Assembly: GCF_963921235.1 (NCBI RefSeq)
Contig: NC_086097.1
Span: 64,544,001-64,608,000, forward strand
Source of the DNA: Mobula hypostoma
Lineage: Eukaryota
Reading direction: 5' to 3'
DNA length: 64,000 nucleotides
In this document: positions 15,588 to 62,089 of the stretch, in pieces
Numbering within the stretch: position 1 is the stretch's first letter
Layout: every line of letters starts with the position of its first letter
Position numbers and translations under genes: made by a program
The notes under the pieces: model-generated
Database searches by the model: none
The model's input: only the letters and a program-made list of their open reading frames with translations
Told to the model about the DNA's origin: nothing

Positions 15588-16061
15588 ACATTGGCTGTCT
15601 GTCGTATCCGGCAAAGACAGTGAAACCTGTGTGGGAGAGTTTTTAAAGTAGAAAAGCCTTTGCACCGGAACGGTTCCACTCTCTCGACCTTGGAAGTCCA
15701 GGTCCAGTGGTATGAGTGGTTGTCACAAACTGAGGTCTTCCTTGATTGCAGTGGATGACCATGACTTCTGTCATGCCCTCTGGTCGACACAAAGATTTGC
15801 AAAACCGCCTCCTTGGCCATTGGATCTCCCTTCACACATAGCAGGACAGGCATGTCCCTATTTTAGCGGGGATGAAGCCTGCTGGTATAGCCCACTTGTC
15901 AAAGCAGTGTATTGGGGTGTGGCTGCTGTCACACGCAAACAGCAATTTGGAGCCAAAGGTGAGAGCTAGTGTCCGGTGGAGATCAAAGGTGAGTAAGCTG
16001 CCCCAGAATGGACACAATTGGCCCCCTCACCAGAGGAGCTACCCCTCCCTGGACACCCCAT
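15588..16061 (-). mobile_element. Diverged copy of the HDV-ribozyme-headed non-coding retroelement
   Basis: The minus strand ATGGGGTGTCCAGGGAGGGGTAGCTCCTCT...GCTCTCACCTTTGGCTCC...GCTGTTTGCGTGTGACAGCAGCCACACCCC aligns with 59886-60033. Degenerate TSD ACACGGCAGC / ACATGACAGT. Confidence 0.8.
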
Positions 16062-16824
16062 ACATGACAGTGGATGCCGGATAAATGCCTCTGTTGATAA
16101 CTATGAGGAACTAATACACAGTTTAGTAGAACTGTGTTAGTGATCTAACTGATCAGTATTTCGTTTAACTACATAATTTGTTACACAGATAAATGATAAT
16201 TTGTCTTTTTTTTTATACCTTTTTAACTATTTCCATGAAGCTTAGGCTAGTTGGGACAGCTGCTTAATTGGACCAAAATGTATTGATTCTGATGTGTACC
16301 AATTAACCAGAATCTGCTGCACTTCAAAATATAAAGGCTCGTTCTGCAAGTCCTCTTTACCAGTGGGTGGGGTGCATGTGGAAATTTTATCCAAGTAAAC
16401 AATATCTGTAAATGAAAAATTAAAGGCAGCACCTTACTGTCGTACACAGGACCACCTTACAATGGGCACAATAATGGAATTTGAATTTTGGTATTATGTC
16501 CATCAAAATCATGTGGAATAATAACAATAAAGGAACATGAAATGTTTAAATAATTTAATTTAAATAAGGTTCTTGCCAATTAACTGTAAGGTCAGAAGAT
16601 CAGGTGTAACGATGAAAGTCCTTCAGTGATTTTGGTTTATTCTTACAGGTAGCAAGGGTTAATATGAAAATAAATTAATCCTCTGCTGAACTTAATCAAT
16701 TCTCTACATCTAATCTTCTGTTGAAAGATTATGCTTTTATGCAAACAATGCTTTTTAGCATCAATGGATCTCTGAAGGTCTTTCAGATGCTGAGAAATGG
16801 CACTAGTGAAACCAAGGTGCAGTT

Positions 16825-59692: not shown

Positions 59693-59878
59693 CAGCTGCC
59701 TTTCCCAACACAAAGCTCTCAAAATTGTCGAGAACTGAGAACATGGGAGTTGAATATCACTCTGATGACGGTATTTAATGATTTGTGCAGCCAAGCACTT
59801 AGTTTTTTTGCGACACGATGTTGTCTGTGAATTACCCAGTGAATGGTAAATATGTTAGGTACAGCTTTTTACAAGAAA

Positions 59879-60072
59879 GGGGTGTATGGGGTATCAGGGA
59901 GGGGTAGCACCTCTCGTGGGGGAACACGTCGTGTCCTTTTCAGGGCGGTTAGTCCACCTTTGGTCCCCACCTGGCACTCAGCTCTCACCTGTGGCTCCCC
60001 GTAGCTGTTTGCATGCGACAGCGGCCACACCCCGGGCAATGGCTTCGACAAGCCGGCTAAACCAGGTGAGGG
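59879..60072 (+). ncRNA. HDV-like self-cleaving ribozyme (predicted)
   Basis: P1 GGGGTGT/ACACCCC; P2 CTCTCACCTGT/ACCAGGTGAGGG; P3 GGC/GCC; L3 TCCCCGT; P1.1 CC/GG; GCAA; P4 TGGCTT/AAGCCG; J4/2 GCTAA. Confidence 0.8.
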
Positions 60073-60443
60073 TAGCCAACGGGTCTCAAACCCTCGGTGA
60101 GATAGGGAGTTGTCTATCCCAGCATGTGAAGACAGACTCTGGCGGATTGAGCGGACGAGACCCATGGAAGGTCCAATGGTCAAGAAGGCGGTCTCTGCAA
60201 GCGTCGTGGAACGTGTAGAGCAGGACAAGACACAGAAGACGTCCTGGTCATCCACTGCGCCTAGTCCCATCTCCAGCCATCTAGACTCTGTCTTGCCACT
60301 GGATCCAGATGGGAATTGGGAAGAGAGAGTGAGGCTGATGCTGCGTAACTCTCCCCCACTTAAATCCAAATGATGCGCTAGTCTCGACACCATCATAATG
60401 GTGTTGAGGTCCTCATCGACGTCAACGATGGACGAACAACAAC
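59879..60443 (+). mobile_element. Full-length non-coding retroelement (RTE-like partner inferred) with a ribozyme head and (AAC)n tail
   Basis: TSD TTTACAAGAAA(G) at 59868-59878 and 60444-60454. 3' hairpins CTCGACACCAT/ATGGTGTTGAG and CATCG/CGATG, then AACAACAAC. Confidence 0.88.
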
Positions 60444-62089
60444 TTTACAAGAAAGTAATAACCCAACGGTGGCGTCCTGTCATTGCTGGTGTCCTGTTCT
60501 GTTGGACAAACAAGAATGTTGGTGAGTAGAATGTCCTCTTTGAAAGATTTCTCAACATGTCGAAATATTGACTCCTCCTTTGTGTCTGTTTCTAGTCTCC
60601 TTGCATCTTGAACCATGCTTTCATCTTTTGTGAAATGAACATAACCAAGAAGCAAAGACTTGTTGCCTGGCAAAGTTGACTCATCCAACTGCAGAGGAAA
60701 TTCTGTTATCTTAATTATGTTGCATAACGTGTCTTCCACATTCTCAGATATTCCATCTATTCATCTTGTTGTCGCTGAGCCGAATCACTTTAATTATTTG
60801 GTCTGGTCATTAATGCAAAACTGTACTCAGAACCTCCCTTACTGCTGGCAGAATCAGTTCTTCTCCAATTGTATAGGACCTTCCAGATTTAGTAATGATC
60901 AATGAAAGGTTGCATGAAGCACACAAAGTCCTGTTGTGAAGTGCCGGCAAGCATGTTTTGAAGTGTTTTCTGTTTCTGAAAAATTTCACAAAGTAACTGC
61001 AAGTAAACCAAGTTCTTGTTTACTTTATCAGAGTGTGTTCTCATCAAATATTCAAGGAGCCTAGATGGTTTCATCACCTCATTTGAAAAAAAGATTTTCA
61101 CACAACAGACAGATGGGCAGCTTTTGGTTACTTAGTGTTGGTACTGATTTGCTCTGCTTCTGTCATTTTCGTTGTGAATTAATGGTCATGGTCAATGGCC
61201 TATTGTTTAAGTCCTACCTCAAGCACTGCAATCAACAAAGGGGAAAGTTATGATCTCATCGTAGCTCAGGCAAAATCTGACTCTCAGCCTGAAGATACAT
61301 AAAGTGAGACAGCGATATGTCATTAGGCTGTTGGCTAAAGAACTGTGGTCAAGGCCATTCTAAAGGGCAGATTCTGAACATTACCCCATTGAATGCCCTA
61401 GTCTAATTCACAGGAATTGTGGTACTGCATGATTAGTGTATGGGAATCATACAAGCTAATACTGTACTACAGTAGTGAGTGGCAATAACGGGTGGGCCAG
61501 ACCAGGCCTGGAAACAACACGATTCCTTCAGTCCAACTTTCTCATGATATGCCAAATACAGACGTGCCACATTGCTTTTCAACAGCTATAACATACTTCA
61601 AGCTAAGTCTAAGAGAACAGTGGGTTAGCAAGAGGTGGGTGAATTTTGATCATTATAATCAATTATGAGACATTGAGGATCAAATGTTTCTAGCAAGTAA
61701 TTCATTTCTTAAATTAAGCCAGTAATCCTTCAACTGCCCCCCCTTGCTACTGAGTGATCCCTCTTTATCTTAGAAACTCCCAGTGCCCCGGGGGTGGGGG
61801 GTGTGGGGGAGGTGATAGTAACCACTTTGGGAACCACTGATTTAGATTCACTGTGCTGTGCCTGAAATGTCAATTGCAGTCTTTGAGAAATTATTACTGT
61901 GTTATCTGAAAATTAGTATAAAGACATGGGTTATTCCCAAAATATTCTGAAGTGAGGCAGCGATGTTAAAGCAGCAGAAGTGAGTGATGGTATTGTAACA
62001 TGCAGTTATCACGTGGCTTCTCCGTGTATTACAGGCAGGGTTATGACCACCTTAAATCATTGCACTGGCTCTCTGCATCAAAAACAATC

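What the first reader, a model, noticed from the sequence alone, without database searches (positions are those of the whole stretch)
59879..60443. Non-coding retroelement whose first base is G1 of a complete HDV-like ribozyme, with a hairpin inserted in L3
Seen in sequence: a 565-bp insertion bounded by an 11-12 bp TSD and ending in (AAC)3. Its 5' part folds as a nested double pseudoknot in HDV order. P1 is 59879-59885 with 60027-60033 (7 bp). J1/2 is long and structured (59886-59981). P2 is 59982-59992 with 60061-60072 (one bulge). P3 is 59993-59995 with 60024-60026. L3 begins UCCCCGU (HDV: UCCUCGC). P1.1 uses GG 60034-60035 followed by GCAA, as in genomic HDV. P4 is 60040-60055. J4/2 is GCUAA with the catalytic-position C at 60057. 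An extra hairpin GCTGT/ACAGC (60004-60022) occupies the position of the extrahelical U27. Established: HDV-like ribozymes process the 5' ends of R2 and RTE-type retrotransposons, and RTE elements end in short tandem tails. Inference: this is a ribozyme-headed, promoter-independent non-autonomous element that excises its RNA from read-through transcripts and uses an RTE-type RT. The match between TSD edge and predicted cleavage site is what that model predicts.
Basis: partly seen in the sequence, partly recalled or inferred. Interest (0 to 1): 0.88.

Follow-up and report, generated by a model that had tools for sequence, protein, structure and literature searches.

The report
Ribozyme-headed short RTE retroelement
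This 565-base insertion is one young copy of a very abundant, non-coding jumping element whose first base is the predicted cutting site of a hepatitis-delta-type self-cleaving RNA inherited from an RTE-type LINE, a known arrangement that here carries an unusual extra hairpin in the catalytic loop.

Summary
59879-60443 is a target-site-duplicated, (AAC)3-tailed copy of a young repeat family: at least 40 copies 96-97% identical, 4696 first-look candidates.

The fold is not chance. 5 of 100,000 dinucleotide shuffles pass an HDV descriptor anchored at base 1, none with P2 of 10 bp or more. 1 of 127,600 window positions passes, and it is 59879.

It is an inherited structure. An older family in this genome and RTE contigs from other assemblies (L089, L107, L129, L092, L123) carry the same core. 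They show compensatory changes in P1, P2, P3 and P4 and an invariant GC-N-AA J4/2.

In a sample chosen by 3' end, 12 of 27 copies start exactly at G1 and none carries shared sequence upstream of it.

The partner is an RTE-like LINE sharing the 3' box and tail. L089 is a full-length relative with the same head. The 40 best LINE 5' regions in this genome lack the head.

Ribozyme-bearing bipartite non-autonomous RTEs are already described. The conserved L3 hairpin appears undescribed. Cleavage itself is untested. Rfam does not match.

The parts
59868..59878 (+). Upstream copy of the target-site duplication (tttacaagaaa; 12 bp if G59879 is counted).
   Evidence: by reading. Empty-site joints 59868-71 to 60444-49 in runs X19, X1 and X20.
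59879..60443 (+). The whole 565-bp non-autonomous element, a copy of the young family.
   Evidence: 40 scored copies at 96-97% identity, 4696 first-look candidates; mean 1.94% from the majority consensus of 30 copies.
59879..59885 (+). P1 5' strand GGGGUGU. The predicted cleavage site is 5' of G59879.
   Evidence: P1 covaries in relatives: L089 GUGGUGU/ACACCAC, L107 AGGGUGU/ACACCCU, L129 GUGGUGU/ACACCAU.
59886..59981 (+). J1/2: a 96-nt rod-like peripheral domain (P1.2-like).
   Evidence: family consensus about -45 kcal/mol; three pairs switch GC/AU, AU/GC and CG/UA between the young and old families. The energy of this copy alone is not significant (z = -1.40).
59982..59992 (+). P2 5' strand (CUCUCACCUG, plus U59992).
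   Evidence: 5 of 10 P2 pairs change on both sides across relatives.
59993..59995 (+). P3 5' strand GGC.
   Evidence: 2 of 3 pairs change on both sides across relatives.
59996..60023 (+). L3: UCCCCGU, then inserted hairpin GCUGU-UUGCAUGCG-ACAGC (60004-60022), then G. C59997 and C59998 are the P1.1 partners.
   Evidence: U, CC and G of L3 are kept while positions 4-5 vary (CC, AA, CA, UA). The hairpin is absent in L092, L123 and L129.
60024..60026 (+). P3 3' strand GCC.
60027..60033 (+). P1 3' strand ACACCCC.
60034..60035 (+). GG of P1.1, followed by GCAA (60036-60039).
   Evidence: GG is kept in the young and old families and in L089, L107, L129 and L092. GCAA is UACA in the old family.
60040..60055 (+). 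P4 hairpin (U/C GGCUU CGAC AAGCC G).
   Evidence: Old family CCGCUU/AGGCGG and L107 CUACG/CGUAG. 5 of 6 pairs change on both sides.
60056..60062 (+). J4/2, GCUAAAC, with C60057 at the catalytic-cytosine position.
   Evidence: G177 G178 C179 are invariant in all 41 rows of A1. GC-N-AA is kept in L089, L107, L092, L123 and L129.
60063..60072 (+). P2 3' strand CAGGUGAGGG.
60104..60388 (+). Body homologous to the 5' UTR of the RTE-like LINE (element positions 226-510).
   Evidence: 74-77% identity to LINE positions 396-682; element 3-491 is 77% identical to L089 80-562.
60408..60443 (+). 3' box GGUCCUCAUCGACGUCAACGAUGGACGAAC plus (AAC)3, shared with the LINE 3' end.
   Evidence: 81-87% identity over 31-36 nt to the LINE tail ...GAAGGACGAACAAC(AAC)n. 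The tail length varies between copies.
60444..60455 (+). Downstream copy of the target-site duplication.
15600..16066 (-). A decayed copy of the older ribozyme-headed family, 5'-truncated by about 4 nt and embedded in another repeat.
   Evidence: 76.8% over element 5-187.. The covariance model matches 15874-15967 at 66.9 bits.

Best explanation
The element is a non-autonomous internal-deletion derivative of an RTE-type LINE, a 'bipartite non-autonomous LINE'. It keeps three pieces of the LINE.

- Positions 1-194: the LINE's 5' HDV-like self-cleaving ribozyme.
- Positions 226-510: part of the LINE's 5' UTR.
- Positions about 530-565: the 3' recognition box with an (AAC)n tail.

Inferred mechanism: it has no recognisable promoter of its own, so it is transcribed as part of longer host or neighbouring transcripts. 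The ribozyme folds as a nested double pseudoknot (P1, P1.1, P2, P3, P4), pinched by a 96-nt J1/2 rod. It cuts 5' of G1, using C60057 of J4/2. The released RNA therefore begins exactly at G1. The RTE reverse transcriptase binds the shared 3' box and copies the RNA into a new nicked site. Full-length copies result that start at G1 and are flanked by 9-13 bp duplications.

What is shown: the family, the boundaries, the fold, its conservation and covariation, the pile-up of 5' ends at G1, and the shared LINE parts.

What is inferred: cleavage itself, read-through transcription, and use of the RTE enzyme.

The 19-nt hairpin sits after the seventh L3 nucleotide. It is a lineage-specific insertion that the ribozyme evidently tolerates.
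For: Family and boundaries.

Fold specificity: 5 of 100,000 shuffles pass; 1 of 127,600 window positions, = 59879; only L107:114 reaches P2 of 10 bp or more among 578,834 positions of 80 RTE loci.

Conservation: between the young and old families the body has diverged to about 70-77% identity. Over the same span P1, P2, P3, the L3 nucleotides U/CC/G, the P1.1 GG and J4/2 are unchanged.

Covariation within this genome (41 copies):
- 94.4% of cells are paired, against 35-49% when partners are slid.
- Family-level switches occur at 3 J1/2 pairs and 1 P4 pair.

Covariation across RTE relatives (9 sequences, alignment fitted by the covariance model):
- 12 of 24 pairs change on both sides (shuffled mean 4.6; 0 of 500 shuffles reach it).
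- 92.7% of cells are paired, against 27-48% when slid.

P1: G2-C becomes U-A in L089 and L129. G1-C becomes A-U in L107 and G.U in L129.

The covariance model found L092 (E = 2e-7) and L123 (E = 0.04), neither of which was in its training set.

5' ends in the 3'-anchored sample of 27 copies:
- 12 start at G1.
- 3 start at positions 2-3.
- 1 starts at position 6.
- 10 are truncated at scattered positions.
- 1 is unresolved.
- None has shared sequence upstream.

Partner:
- LINE copy C21:71885600-71894100 has Exo_endo_phos and RVT_1 domains.
- Its endonuclease homologues are named craniofacial development protein 2-like.
- It shares the tail box with the element.
- L089 is a 4197-nt RTE contig with a 1109-aa ORF, and the same ribozyme head at 78-271.

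Literature:
- Bipartite non-autonomous RTE, Ingi and R2 elements keep the LINE 5' end, which is linked to 5' ribozymes (PMC5786205, passages).
- Structured J1/2 domains accelerate HDV-like ribozymes (PMC4908430, passages).
- J1/2 loops of 216-498 nt occur in active R2 ribozymes (PMC3774820, passages).
Against: - No cleavage assay was possible, and no RNA 5' ends were available. All sequencing runs offered were contigs.
- No Rfam HDV-like family matches the window, even at E up to 10, nor the relatives.
- L3 is 28 nt instead of the usual 7-8, inside the catalytic core. I know of no tested ribozyme with this feature.
- The L3 hairpin has no fully compensatory change. It shows only U-A to U.G changes.
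- P1.1 never varies, so covariation says nothing about it.
- The J1/2 energy of this copy is ordinary (z = -1.40).
- 6 of 29 full-length young copies, plus L075, carry G6 to A. That makes an A.C mismatch in P1, with no compensation at position 150.
- A pile-up of 5' ends at one base is also what a fixed transcription start would give.
- The alignment is fitted to the model's structure, so its counts lean towards that structure.
- The autonomous LINE copies found in this genome lack the ribozyme: 0 of 40 best 5' regions have it, 0 pattern hits, and the covariance model has no hit in L063-L066. The head is therefore not required for RTE mobility here.
Confidence: 0.75

Rival explanations
1. Fossil ribozyme. 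The head is inherited from a ribozyme-bearing RTE, but the L3 hairpin or other changes have inactivated it. The uniform 5' end at G1 would then come from a transcription start, set by an internal or captured promoter in the master copies, not from self-cleavage.
For: - The L3 insertion lies in the catalytic loop.
- Rfam models do not match.
- G6 to A copies carry a P1 mismatch.
- The autonomous LINE in this genome works without the head.
- A fixed start site also gives a pile-up at one base.
Against: - The hairpin-bearing form is shared by lineages whose endonucleases are only about 51-62% identical to the query (L107, L089).
- P1, P2 and P4 changed by compensation after that split, and the catalytic nucleotides stayed fixed. 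This points to selection on the fold after the insertion arose.
- There is no tRNA, 7SL or 5S-type head.
- The fold begins exactly at base 1, which a promoter model does not predict.
Confidence: 0.15
2. The structured head is kept mainly for another role, such as binding the RTE protein, protecting the 5' end, nuclear export, or IRES-like activity as proposed for R2 and L1Tc ribozymes. Cleavage would be secondary or absent.
For: - HDV-like ribozymes of R2 and L1Tc have been proposed to act like IRESes (PMC6765202, passages).
- Conservation and covariation show that a structure is selected. They do not show what it does.
Against: - The element has no conserved ORF to translate.
- The invariant nucleotides are exactly those of the HDV active site: the U/CC/G of L3, the P1.1 GG, and GC-N-AA of J4/2.
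- The 5' end of copies coincides with the cleavage site.
Confidence: 0.08
3. The fold is a chance product of a G-rich 5' end and C-rich complements in a GC-rich repeat.
For: - With G-U pairs allowed in P1, 49 of 20,000 shuffles pass the loose descriptor, and 277 of 20,000 pass a relaxed one.
- The J1/2 energy is not unusual.
Against: - With Watson-Crick P1, 5 of 100,000 shuffles pass, and 0 have P2 of 10 bp or more.
- Only one window position passes.
- Compensatory changes occur in four helices across independent lineages.
Confidence: 0.02

Closest known systems
HDV-like ribozymes at the 5' ends of RTE-clade LINEs (Ruminski, Webb, Riccitelli and Luptak 2011, J Biol Chem 286:41286). The paper was not held here. 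It is known to me only through citations in PMC5786205, PMC6765202 and PMC3774820, of which I read passages.
   Same: - A double-pseudoknot ribozyme whose first P1 nucleotide is the first base of the element.
- The host element is an RTE-type LINE with a short tandem-repeat tail.
- The proposed role is release from read-through transcripts.
   Different: - This is a cartilaginous-fish lineage.
- L3 carries a 19-nt hairpin.
- The ribozyme sits on an abundant non-autonomous derivative (4696 first-look candidates), while the 40 best-scoring autonomous 5' ends examined in the same genome lack it.
- I could not compare sequences with the published RTE ribozymes.
Bipartite non-autonomous LINEs of the RTE, Ingi and R2 clades (Kojima 2018, PMC5786205, passages read). 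These include R2 SIDEs (Eickbush and Eickbush 2012, PMC3414825, abstract seen) and NARTc of Trypanosoma cruzi (PMC3383444, abstract seen).
   Same: A 5' end plus a 3' end of the parent LINE, with the coding middle deleted, the 5' ribozyme kept, and mobilisation in trans.
   Different: - SIDEs are confined to rDNA, and NARTc to trypanosomes with the small L1Tc ribozyme.
- This family is dispersed genome-wide in a vertebrate.
- It has outlived the ribozyme in its autonomous partner.
Mosquito drz-Agam-2 ribozymes with a structured J1/2 (P1.2) domain (Webb et al. 2016, PMC4908430, passages read), and R2 ribozymes with J1/2 loops of 216-498 nt (PMC3774820, passages read).
   Same: A long, helical J1/2 insert between P1 and P2. 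Here it is 96 nt, with three compensatory pair switches between families.
   Different: Those ribozymes have a short L3. No insertion in L3 is described in the passages I read.
Genomic HDV ribozyme and the mammalian CPEB3 ribozyme. The comparison is recalled, not tested with a tool.
   Same: - The order of helices.
- A 7-bp P1 and a 3-bp P3.
- L3 starting UCC..G.
- A two-pair P1.1 made with the GG after P1.
- GGGCAA after P1 in the young family.
- GC-N-AA in J4/2.
   Different: - J1/2 is 96 nt instead of a few.
- L3 is 28 nt instead of 7-8.
- P4 is short.
- No Rfam model of these families matches.

Membership tests
HDV-like self-cleaving ribozymes | P1 helix whose first nucleotide follows the cleavage site, paired with a strand downstream of P3. 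| tested here: met
   7 Watson-Crick pairs, 59879-85 with 60027-33. Compensatory P1 changes occur in L089, L107 and L129.
HDV-like self-cleaving ribozymes | Nested double pseudoknot: P2 crosses P1, P3 lies inside P1, P4 lies inside P2. | tested here: met
   Helix order confirmed. P2, P3 and P4 have 5, 2 and 5 pairs with changes on both sides.
HDV-like self-cleaving ribozymes | P1.1: two C of L3 pair with the two G that follow P1. | tested here: inconclusive
   CC at L3 positions 2-3 and GG after P1 are present, and are kept in the young and old families and in L089, L107, L129 and L092. They never vary, so there is no covariation.
HDV-like self-cleaving ribozymes | Catalytic cytosine in J4/2. 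| tested here: met
   C60057 sits in GCUAA. GC-N-AA is kept in all relatives found. Only its presence and conservation are shown, not its function.
HDV-like self-cleaving ribozymes | Short L3 of about 7-8 nt (a recalled feature of the known members). | tested here: not met
   L3 is 28 nt because a 5-bp hairpin is inserted after its seventh nucleotide. Relatives L092, L123 and L129 have the 7-nt form.
HDV-like self-cleaving ribozymes | Match to a curated Rfam HDV-like covariance model. | tested here: not met
   No HDV-type hit at the gathering score or at E up to 10, in the window or in six relatives. The models cannot encode the pseudoknot, and the long inserts are penalised.
HDV-like self-cleaving ribozymes | Site-specific self-scission that leaves a 5'-OH at G1. 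| not testable with these tools
   Only contigs of public runs were available, so no read starts could be seen.
Bipartite non-autonomous LINE (RTE partner) | 3' end shared with an autonomous LINE of the same genome. | tested here: met
   31-36 nt at 81-87% identity, ending GGACGAACAAC(AAC)n.
Bipartite non-autonomous LINE (RTE partner) | 5' end shared with the parent LINE. | tested here: met
   Element 3-491 matches L089 80-562 at 77%. L089 is a full-length RTE contig from another assembly. In this genome only the 5' UTR part (226-510) is shared. The head is absent from 40 of 40 best LINE 5' regions.
Bipartite non-autonomous LINE (RTE partner) | Target-site duplications, variable simple-repeat tail and 5' truncations, as expected of target-primed reverse transcription. 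| tested here: met
   duplications of 9-13 bp, (AAC)2-6 tails, and 10 of 27 copies 5'-truncated.
Bipartite non-autonomous LINE (RTE partner) | The partner belongs to the RTE clade. | tested here: inconclusive
   One ORF with Exo_endo_phos and RVT_1 domains. L089 has an ORF of 1109 aa. Homologues are named craniofacial development protein 2-like; that this name marks RTE/BovB-derived endonucleases is recalled. No tree with reference RTE elements was built.
Classical SINE (pol III head) | Head derived from tRNA, 7SL or 5S RNA. | tested here: not met
   No Rfam family and no tRNA.

The most novel reading that the evidence does not exclude
A sub-lineage of RTE ribozymes has acquired a stable hairpin inside L3, the catalytic loop of the HDV fold, and remains an active self-cleaver. 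That would make L3 a third permissive site for peripheral domains, besides J1/2 and P4.

In this ray-like genome the ribozyme now survives only on the parasitic short element. That element amplified to thousands of copies by riding on read-through transcripts. Its autonomous RTE partner, meanwhile, swapped the ribozyme head for a captured host exon. So two different solutions to the 'no promoter' problem would coexist in one LINE/SINE pair.
Probability: 0.45. Interest if true: 0.62.

Novelty: new variant of a known kind. Interest (0 to 1): 0.5.

Why it matters
**Ribozyme biology.** If the hairpin-bearing form cleaves, the HDV active-site loop tolerates a structured insertion after its seventh nucleotide. 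That would widen the descriptors used to find such ribozymes. Rfam and strict descriptors miss this whole lineage.

**Transposon biology.** This is a clean vertebrate case of a ribozyme-headed, promoter-less short element with thousands of young copies. It comes with a natural contrast: the autonomous partner in the same genome has replaced the ribozyme with other 5' sequence. The pair is suited to test whether 5' self-cleavage or a captured 5' exon better supports amplification.

**What is ordinary.** The general arrangement, an HDV-like ribozyme at an RTE 5' end that is kept by bipartite non-autonomous derivatives, is already in print. The case is useful but not surprising.

Tried and rejected
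- **Rfam.** Scans of the window and of six related loci gave no HDV-type match. The only hits were weak chance ones (MIR162_2, int-alpA, snoRNAs).
- **Whole-genome file.** Not available.
- **First LINE guess.** The most abundant RVT_1 family in the genome has a 1264-aa ORF and looks L1-like. It has no similarity to the element, so it was rejected as partner.
- **Searching with the 3' 144 nt.** This returned only copies of the short element.
- **Pattern search for a ribozyme-type P1' upstream of the young LINE's own 5' UTR motif.** 0 hits. A relaxed descriptor over the LINE 5' end gave one internal weak hit only.
- **L056.** I considered it as a possible ribozyme-headed LINE. It is an old short copy interrupted by another repeat.
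- **The 69-aa sense ORF (60164-60373).** Its ATG is not kept in the LINE 5' UTR. The old family has a shorter frame, by reading the consensus. There is no Pfam family above cut-off. I treat it as non-coding.
- **RNA evidence.** No RNA holder was listed. All 24 runs are contigs, 18 of them only guessed to be RNA. Laying four runs gave no table of molecule starts, so there is no evidence either way on expression or RNA ends.
- **Bacterial promoter and terminator scan.** Not applicable to this organism.
- **MAFFT alignments A3 and A4.** These misplaced the 5' end of L107 and were not used for counts.
- **Earlier-findings look-up by sequence.** It found nothing.
- **Ruminski 2011 (PMC3308841).** Not held.
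- **Literature search for an L3 insertion in HDV-like ribozymes.** A search of the held library found none (4 papers, all about porins; listing). This is a limited search, not proof of absence. Dfam and Repbase could not be consulted.
Full report
**Observation**

The stretch 59879-60443 is a 565-bp insertion ending GAACAACAAC. It lies between two copies of tttacaagaaa(g).
- P1: GGGGUGU with ACACCCC.
- P2: 59982-59991 with 60063-60072, plus optional U59992-A60061 with C60062 bulged.
- P3: GGC with GCC.
- L3: UCCCCGU, followed by the hairpin GCUGU/ACAGC.
- GG then GCAA after P1.
- P4: 60040-60055.
- J4/2: GCUAA, with C60057.

**It is a repeat family**

The window's genome (3.48 Gb, 200 contigs) gave 4696 first-look candidates. 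All 40 scored copies are 96-97% identical, and 30 of the 40 align from query base 1. The mean distance of 30 copies from their majority consensus is 1.94%, and 125 of 325 differences are CpG transitions.

Copies have their own 9-13 bp duplications directly abutting GGGGTGT, and tails of (AAC)2-6.

Contigs of four public runs from four coded organisms cover the element at far higher depth than its flanks. Contigs of three of these runs (X19, X1, X20) join 59868-71 to 60444-49, which is the empty-site form. In X19, 85 contigs become unlike the window exactly before 59879. The flanks are themselves repetitive.

**Where copies begin**

The sample favours full-length copies. I therefore took the first 27 non-self hits of a search with only the last 144 nt and read their 5' ends:
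- 12 begin at G1.
- 3 begin at positions 2-3.
- 1 begins at position 6.
- 10 are truncated, at 45, 45, 166, 170, 190, 224, 238, 267, 357 and 402.
- 1 is unresolved.
- None carries family sequence upstream of G1.

This fits an RNA whose 5' end is G1. A fixed transcription start would give the same picture.

**Is the fold chance?**

I wrote an HDV descriptor anchored at base 1 with these requirements:
- P1 of 7 pairs.
- P3 of 3 pairs adjoining P1'.
- L3 of 6-40 nt with CC at positions 2-3.
- GG after P1'.
- P4 of at least 4 pairs.
- A C in J4/2.
- P2 of at least 6 pairs.

Results:

| Test | Result |
|---|---|
| Dinucleotide shuffles, G-U allowed in P1 | 49 of 20,000 pass |
| Dinucleotide shuffles, Watson-Crick P1 | 5 of 100,000 pass |
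| Same shuffles reaching P2 of 10 bp or more | 0 of 100,000 (the real P2 is 11 with a terminal G.U) |
| Window positions, both strands | 1 of 127,600 passes, = 59879 |

The descriptor was written after seeing the model, so these figures are generous to it. The fold energy of J1/2 in this copy is unremarkable (z = -1.40).

**An older family in the same genome**

A decayed relative lies in the window itself at 16066-15600 on the minus strand. Searching with it returned an older family at 70-74% identity, with 6600 first-look candidates.

Its consensus head is nearly the same as the young one, while the body has drifted:
- P1, P2, P3, J4/2, the U/CC/G of L3 and the P1.1 GG are identical.
- L3 positions 4-5 are AA instead of CC.
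- GCAA is UACA.
- P4 reads CCGCUU/AGGCGG instead of CGGCUU/AAGCCG. That is a G-C to C-G flip plus a U-A to U.G change.

On 41 copies of both families, 94.4% of cells pair, against 35-49% with slid partners. Three J1/2 pairs and one P4 pair switch between families. These are single events inherited by many copies.

**The partner LINE**

There a short LINE-derived element ends ...GAAGGACGAACAACAACAACA and shares element positions 232-505.

Following it gave a 4.28-kb LINE copy on C21. Its features:
- Exo_endo_phos and RVT_1 domains, plus a sub-threshold C2H2 motif.
- Its 5' UTR (396-682) matches element 226-510 at 74-77%.
- Its last 31-36 nt match the element's 3' end at 81-87%.
- Its endonuclease has 2473 homologues at E of 1e-10 or better. 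Among the 120 listed, at least 10 are named craniofacial development protein 2-like. As I recall, that is the label given to RTE/BovB-type endonucleases.

This LINE family has no ribozyme:
- The covariance model finds nothing in L063-L066.
- A motif pattern gave 0 hits.
- All 40 best matches in this genome to L089:78-1400 start at query 221-228 or later, that is after the ribozyme.

I saw the GC-rich segment but did not test its origin.

**Relatives elsewhere carry the ribozyme**

A scan of metagenome and assembly contigs with an endonuclease alignment kept 80 of 496 relatives.

- **L089** (4197 nt, ORF 1109 aa, tail GGACGAAC(ATC)n) has the same head at 78-271, 84% identical to the window's. 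It continues into the 5' UTR and ORF. It is an autonomous RTE with this ribozyme.
  - P1 is GUGGUGU/ACACCAC.
- **L107** (endonuclease 51% identical) has these helices:
  - P1: AGGGUGU/ACACCCU.
  - P2: CUCUUACCAG/CUGGUGAGGG, a U-A to A-U flip.
  - P4: CUACG/CGUAG.
  - L3: UCCUAGU.
  - Hairpin: GCUGU/ACGGC.
  - J4/2: identical, GCUAAA.

I built a covariance model of the core (P2, P3, hairpin, P4). It found further cores that were not in its training set:

| Locus | Bits | E-value |
|---|---|---|
| L092 | 45.5 | 2e-7 |
| L123 | 22.3 | 0.04 |
| L129 | 14.4 | 2 |

In all three the 22 hairpin positions are replaced by one nucleotide, giving a canonical 7-nt L3 (UCCAAGA, UCCUCGU, UCCCCGC). L129 has P1 GUGGUGU/ACACCAU, with a G.U first pair. 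L092 is cut off before P1. L123 has no clean P1.

On the model-fitted alignment of nine sequences:
- 12 of 24 pairs change on both sides: P2 five, P3 two, P4 five.
- The shuffled mean is 4.6, and 0 of 500 shuffles reach 12.
- 92.7% of cells pair, against 27-48% when slid.

The fit to the model biases this count upwards. The hairpin shows only wobble changes.

**Reading**

The element is the 5' roughly 500 nt plus the 3' roughly 35-60 nt of a ribozyme-headed RTE. It is a bipartite non-autonomous LINE in the sense of Kojima 2018 (PMC5786205, passages read). That paper already ties this architecture in RTE, Ingi and R2 to 5' ribozymes.

Long, helical J1/2 domains are known to activate such ribozymes (PMC4908430, passages). 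J1/2 loops of hundreds of nucleotides occur in active R2 ribozymes (PMC3774820, passages).

What I did not find described is a hairpin inside L3 (a limited library, and Ruminski 2011 was not held).

The element has no tRNA-type head and no conserved ORF.

**What remains open**

Self-cleavage, the source of transcription and use of the RTE enzyme are inferred. No raw RNA reads were available.

Three points count against activity:
- The L3 insertion.
- The Rfam misses.
- A G6 to A variant in 6 of 29 full-length copies, without compensation.

One point counts for activity. The fold has been maintained by compensation in lineages that already carried the hairpin.

**Verdict**

It is a new structural variant and a new vertebrate family of a known kind. 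Interest is moderate.

Noticed in passing
window 15600-16066 (-), and loci L031, L033, L037, L042, L043, L045, L048, L051, L053, L057, L059, L060: 12 of the 30 loci returned for the old family share the same flanking sequence on both sides and a TGCTGCC(A/G) duplication. One old, slightly 5'-truncated copy was therefore inserted into another repeat, and that repeat then multiplied carrying it.
   Followed up: partly
window 59780-59878 and 60444-60540: The flanks of the insertion are themselves a repeat. Contig depth there is in the hundreds to thousands, and many contigs join the two flanks without the element.
   Followed up: no
window 59879-60443, minus strand: The antisense strand of the young family has no stop codon over the whole 565 nt (187 codons) in the majority consensus, and over at least 150 codons in 27 of 30 copies. 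The open frame is not kept in the old family (112), the L089 head (77) or the L107 head (79), and it has no Pfam match. It is probably chance in a GC-rich young family, but it is unexplained.
   Followed up: partly
element position 6 (window 59884) in L009, L015, L018, L026, L027, L030, L075: A recurrent G to A change makes an A.C mismatch in P1. There is no compensating change at position 150, and only a weak link to one other site (column 520). It is unclear whether this reflects a second master copy, a copying error near the cDNA end, or editing.
   Followed up: partly
G000:C21:71885600-71894100 (L064+L066) and L065, L063: The young RTE-like LINE of this genome (98-99% identical copies, 488 first-look candidates for its 5' UTR) has a GC-rich 5' head of about 395 nt in place of the ribozyme. 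40 of 40 best LINE 5' regions lack the ribozyme.
   Followed up: partly
G000:C1:65939500-65946500 (L061): The strongest RVT_1 matches in the genome belong to a different, very abundant LINE with a 1264-aa ORF that is intact in many copies. It is unrelated to the element.
   Followed up: no
L092:12-87, L123:380-455, L129:431-509: More distant RTE relatives carry the same ribozyme core with a canonical 7-nt L3. In L123 and L129, J1/2 regions of about 130-150 nt are implied. The L123 L3 reads UCCUCG, as I recall for genomic HDV.
   Followed up: partly
L107:101-113: The sequence just upstream of the predicted G/A1 of the L107 ribozyme reads ...AAACAACA. It resembles the (AAC)n tail of this element lineage, so it may be the end of an adjacent copy.
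   Followed up: no
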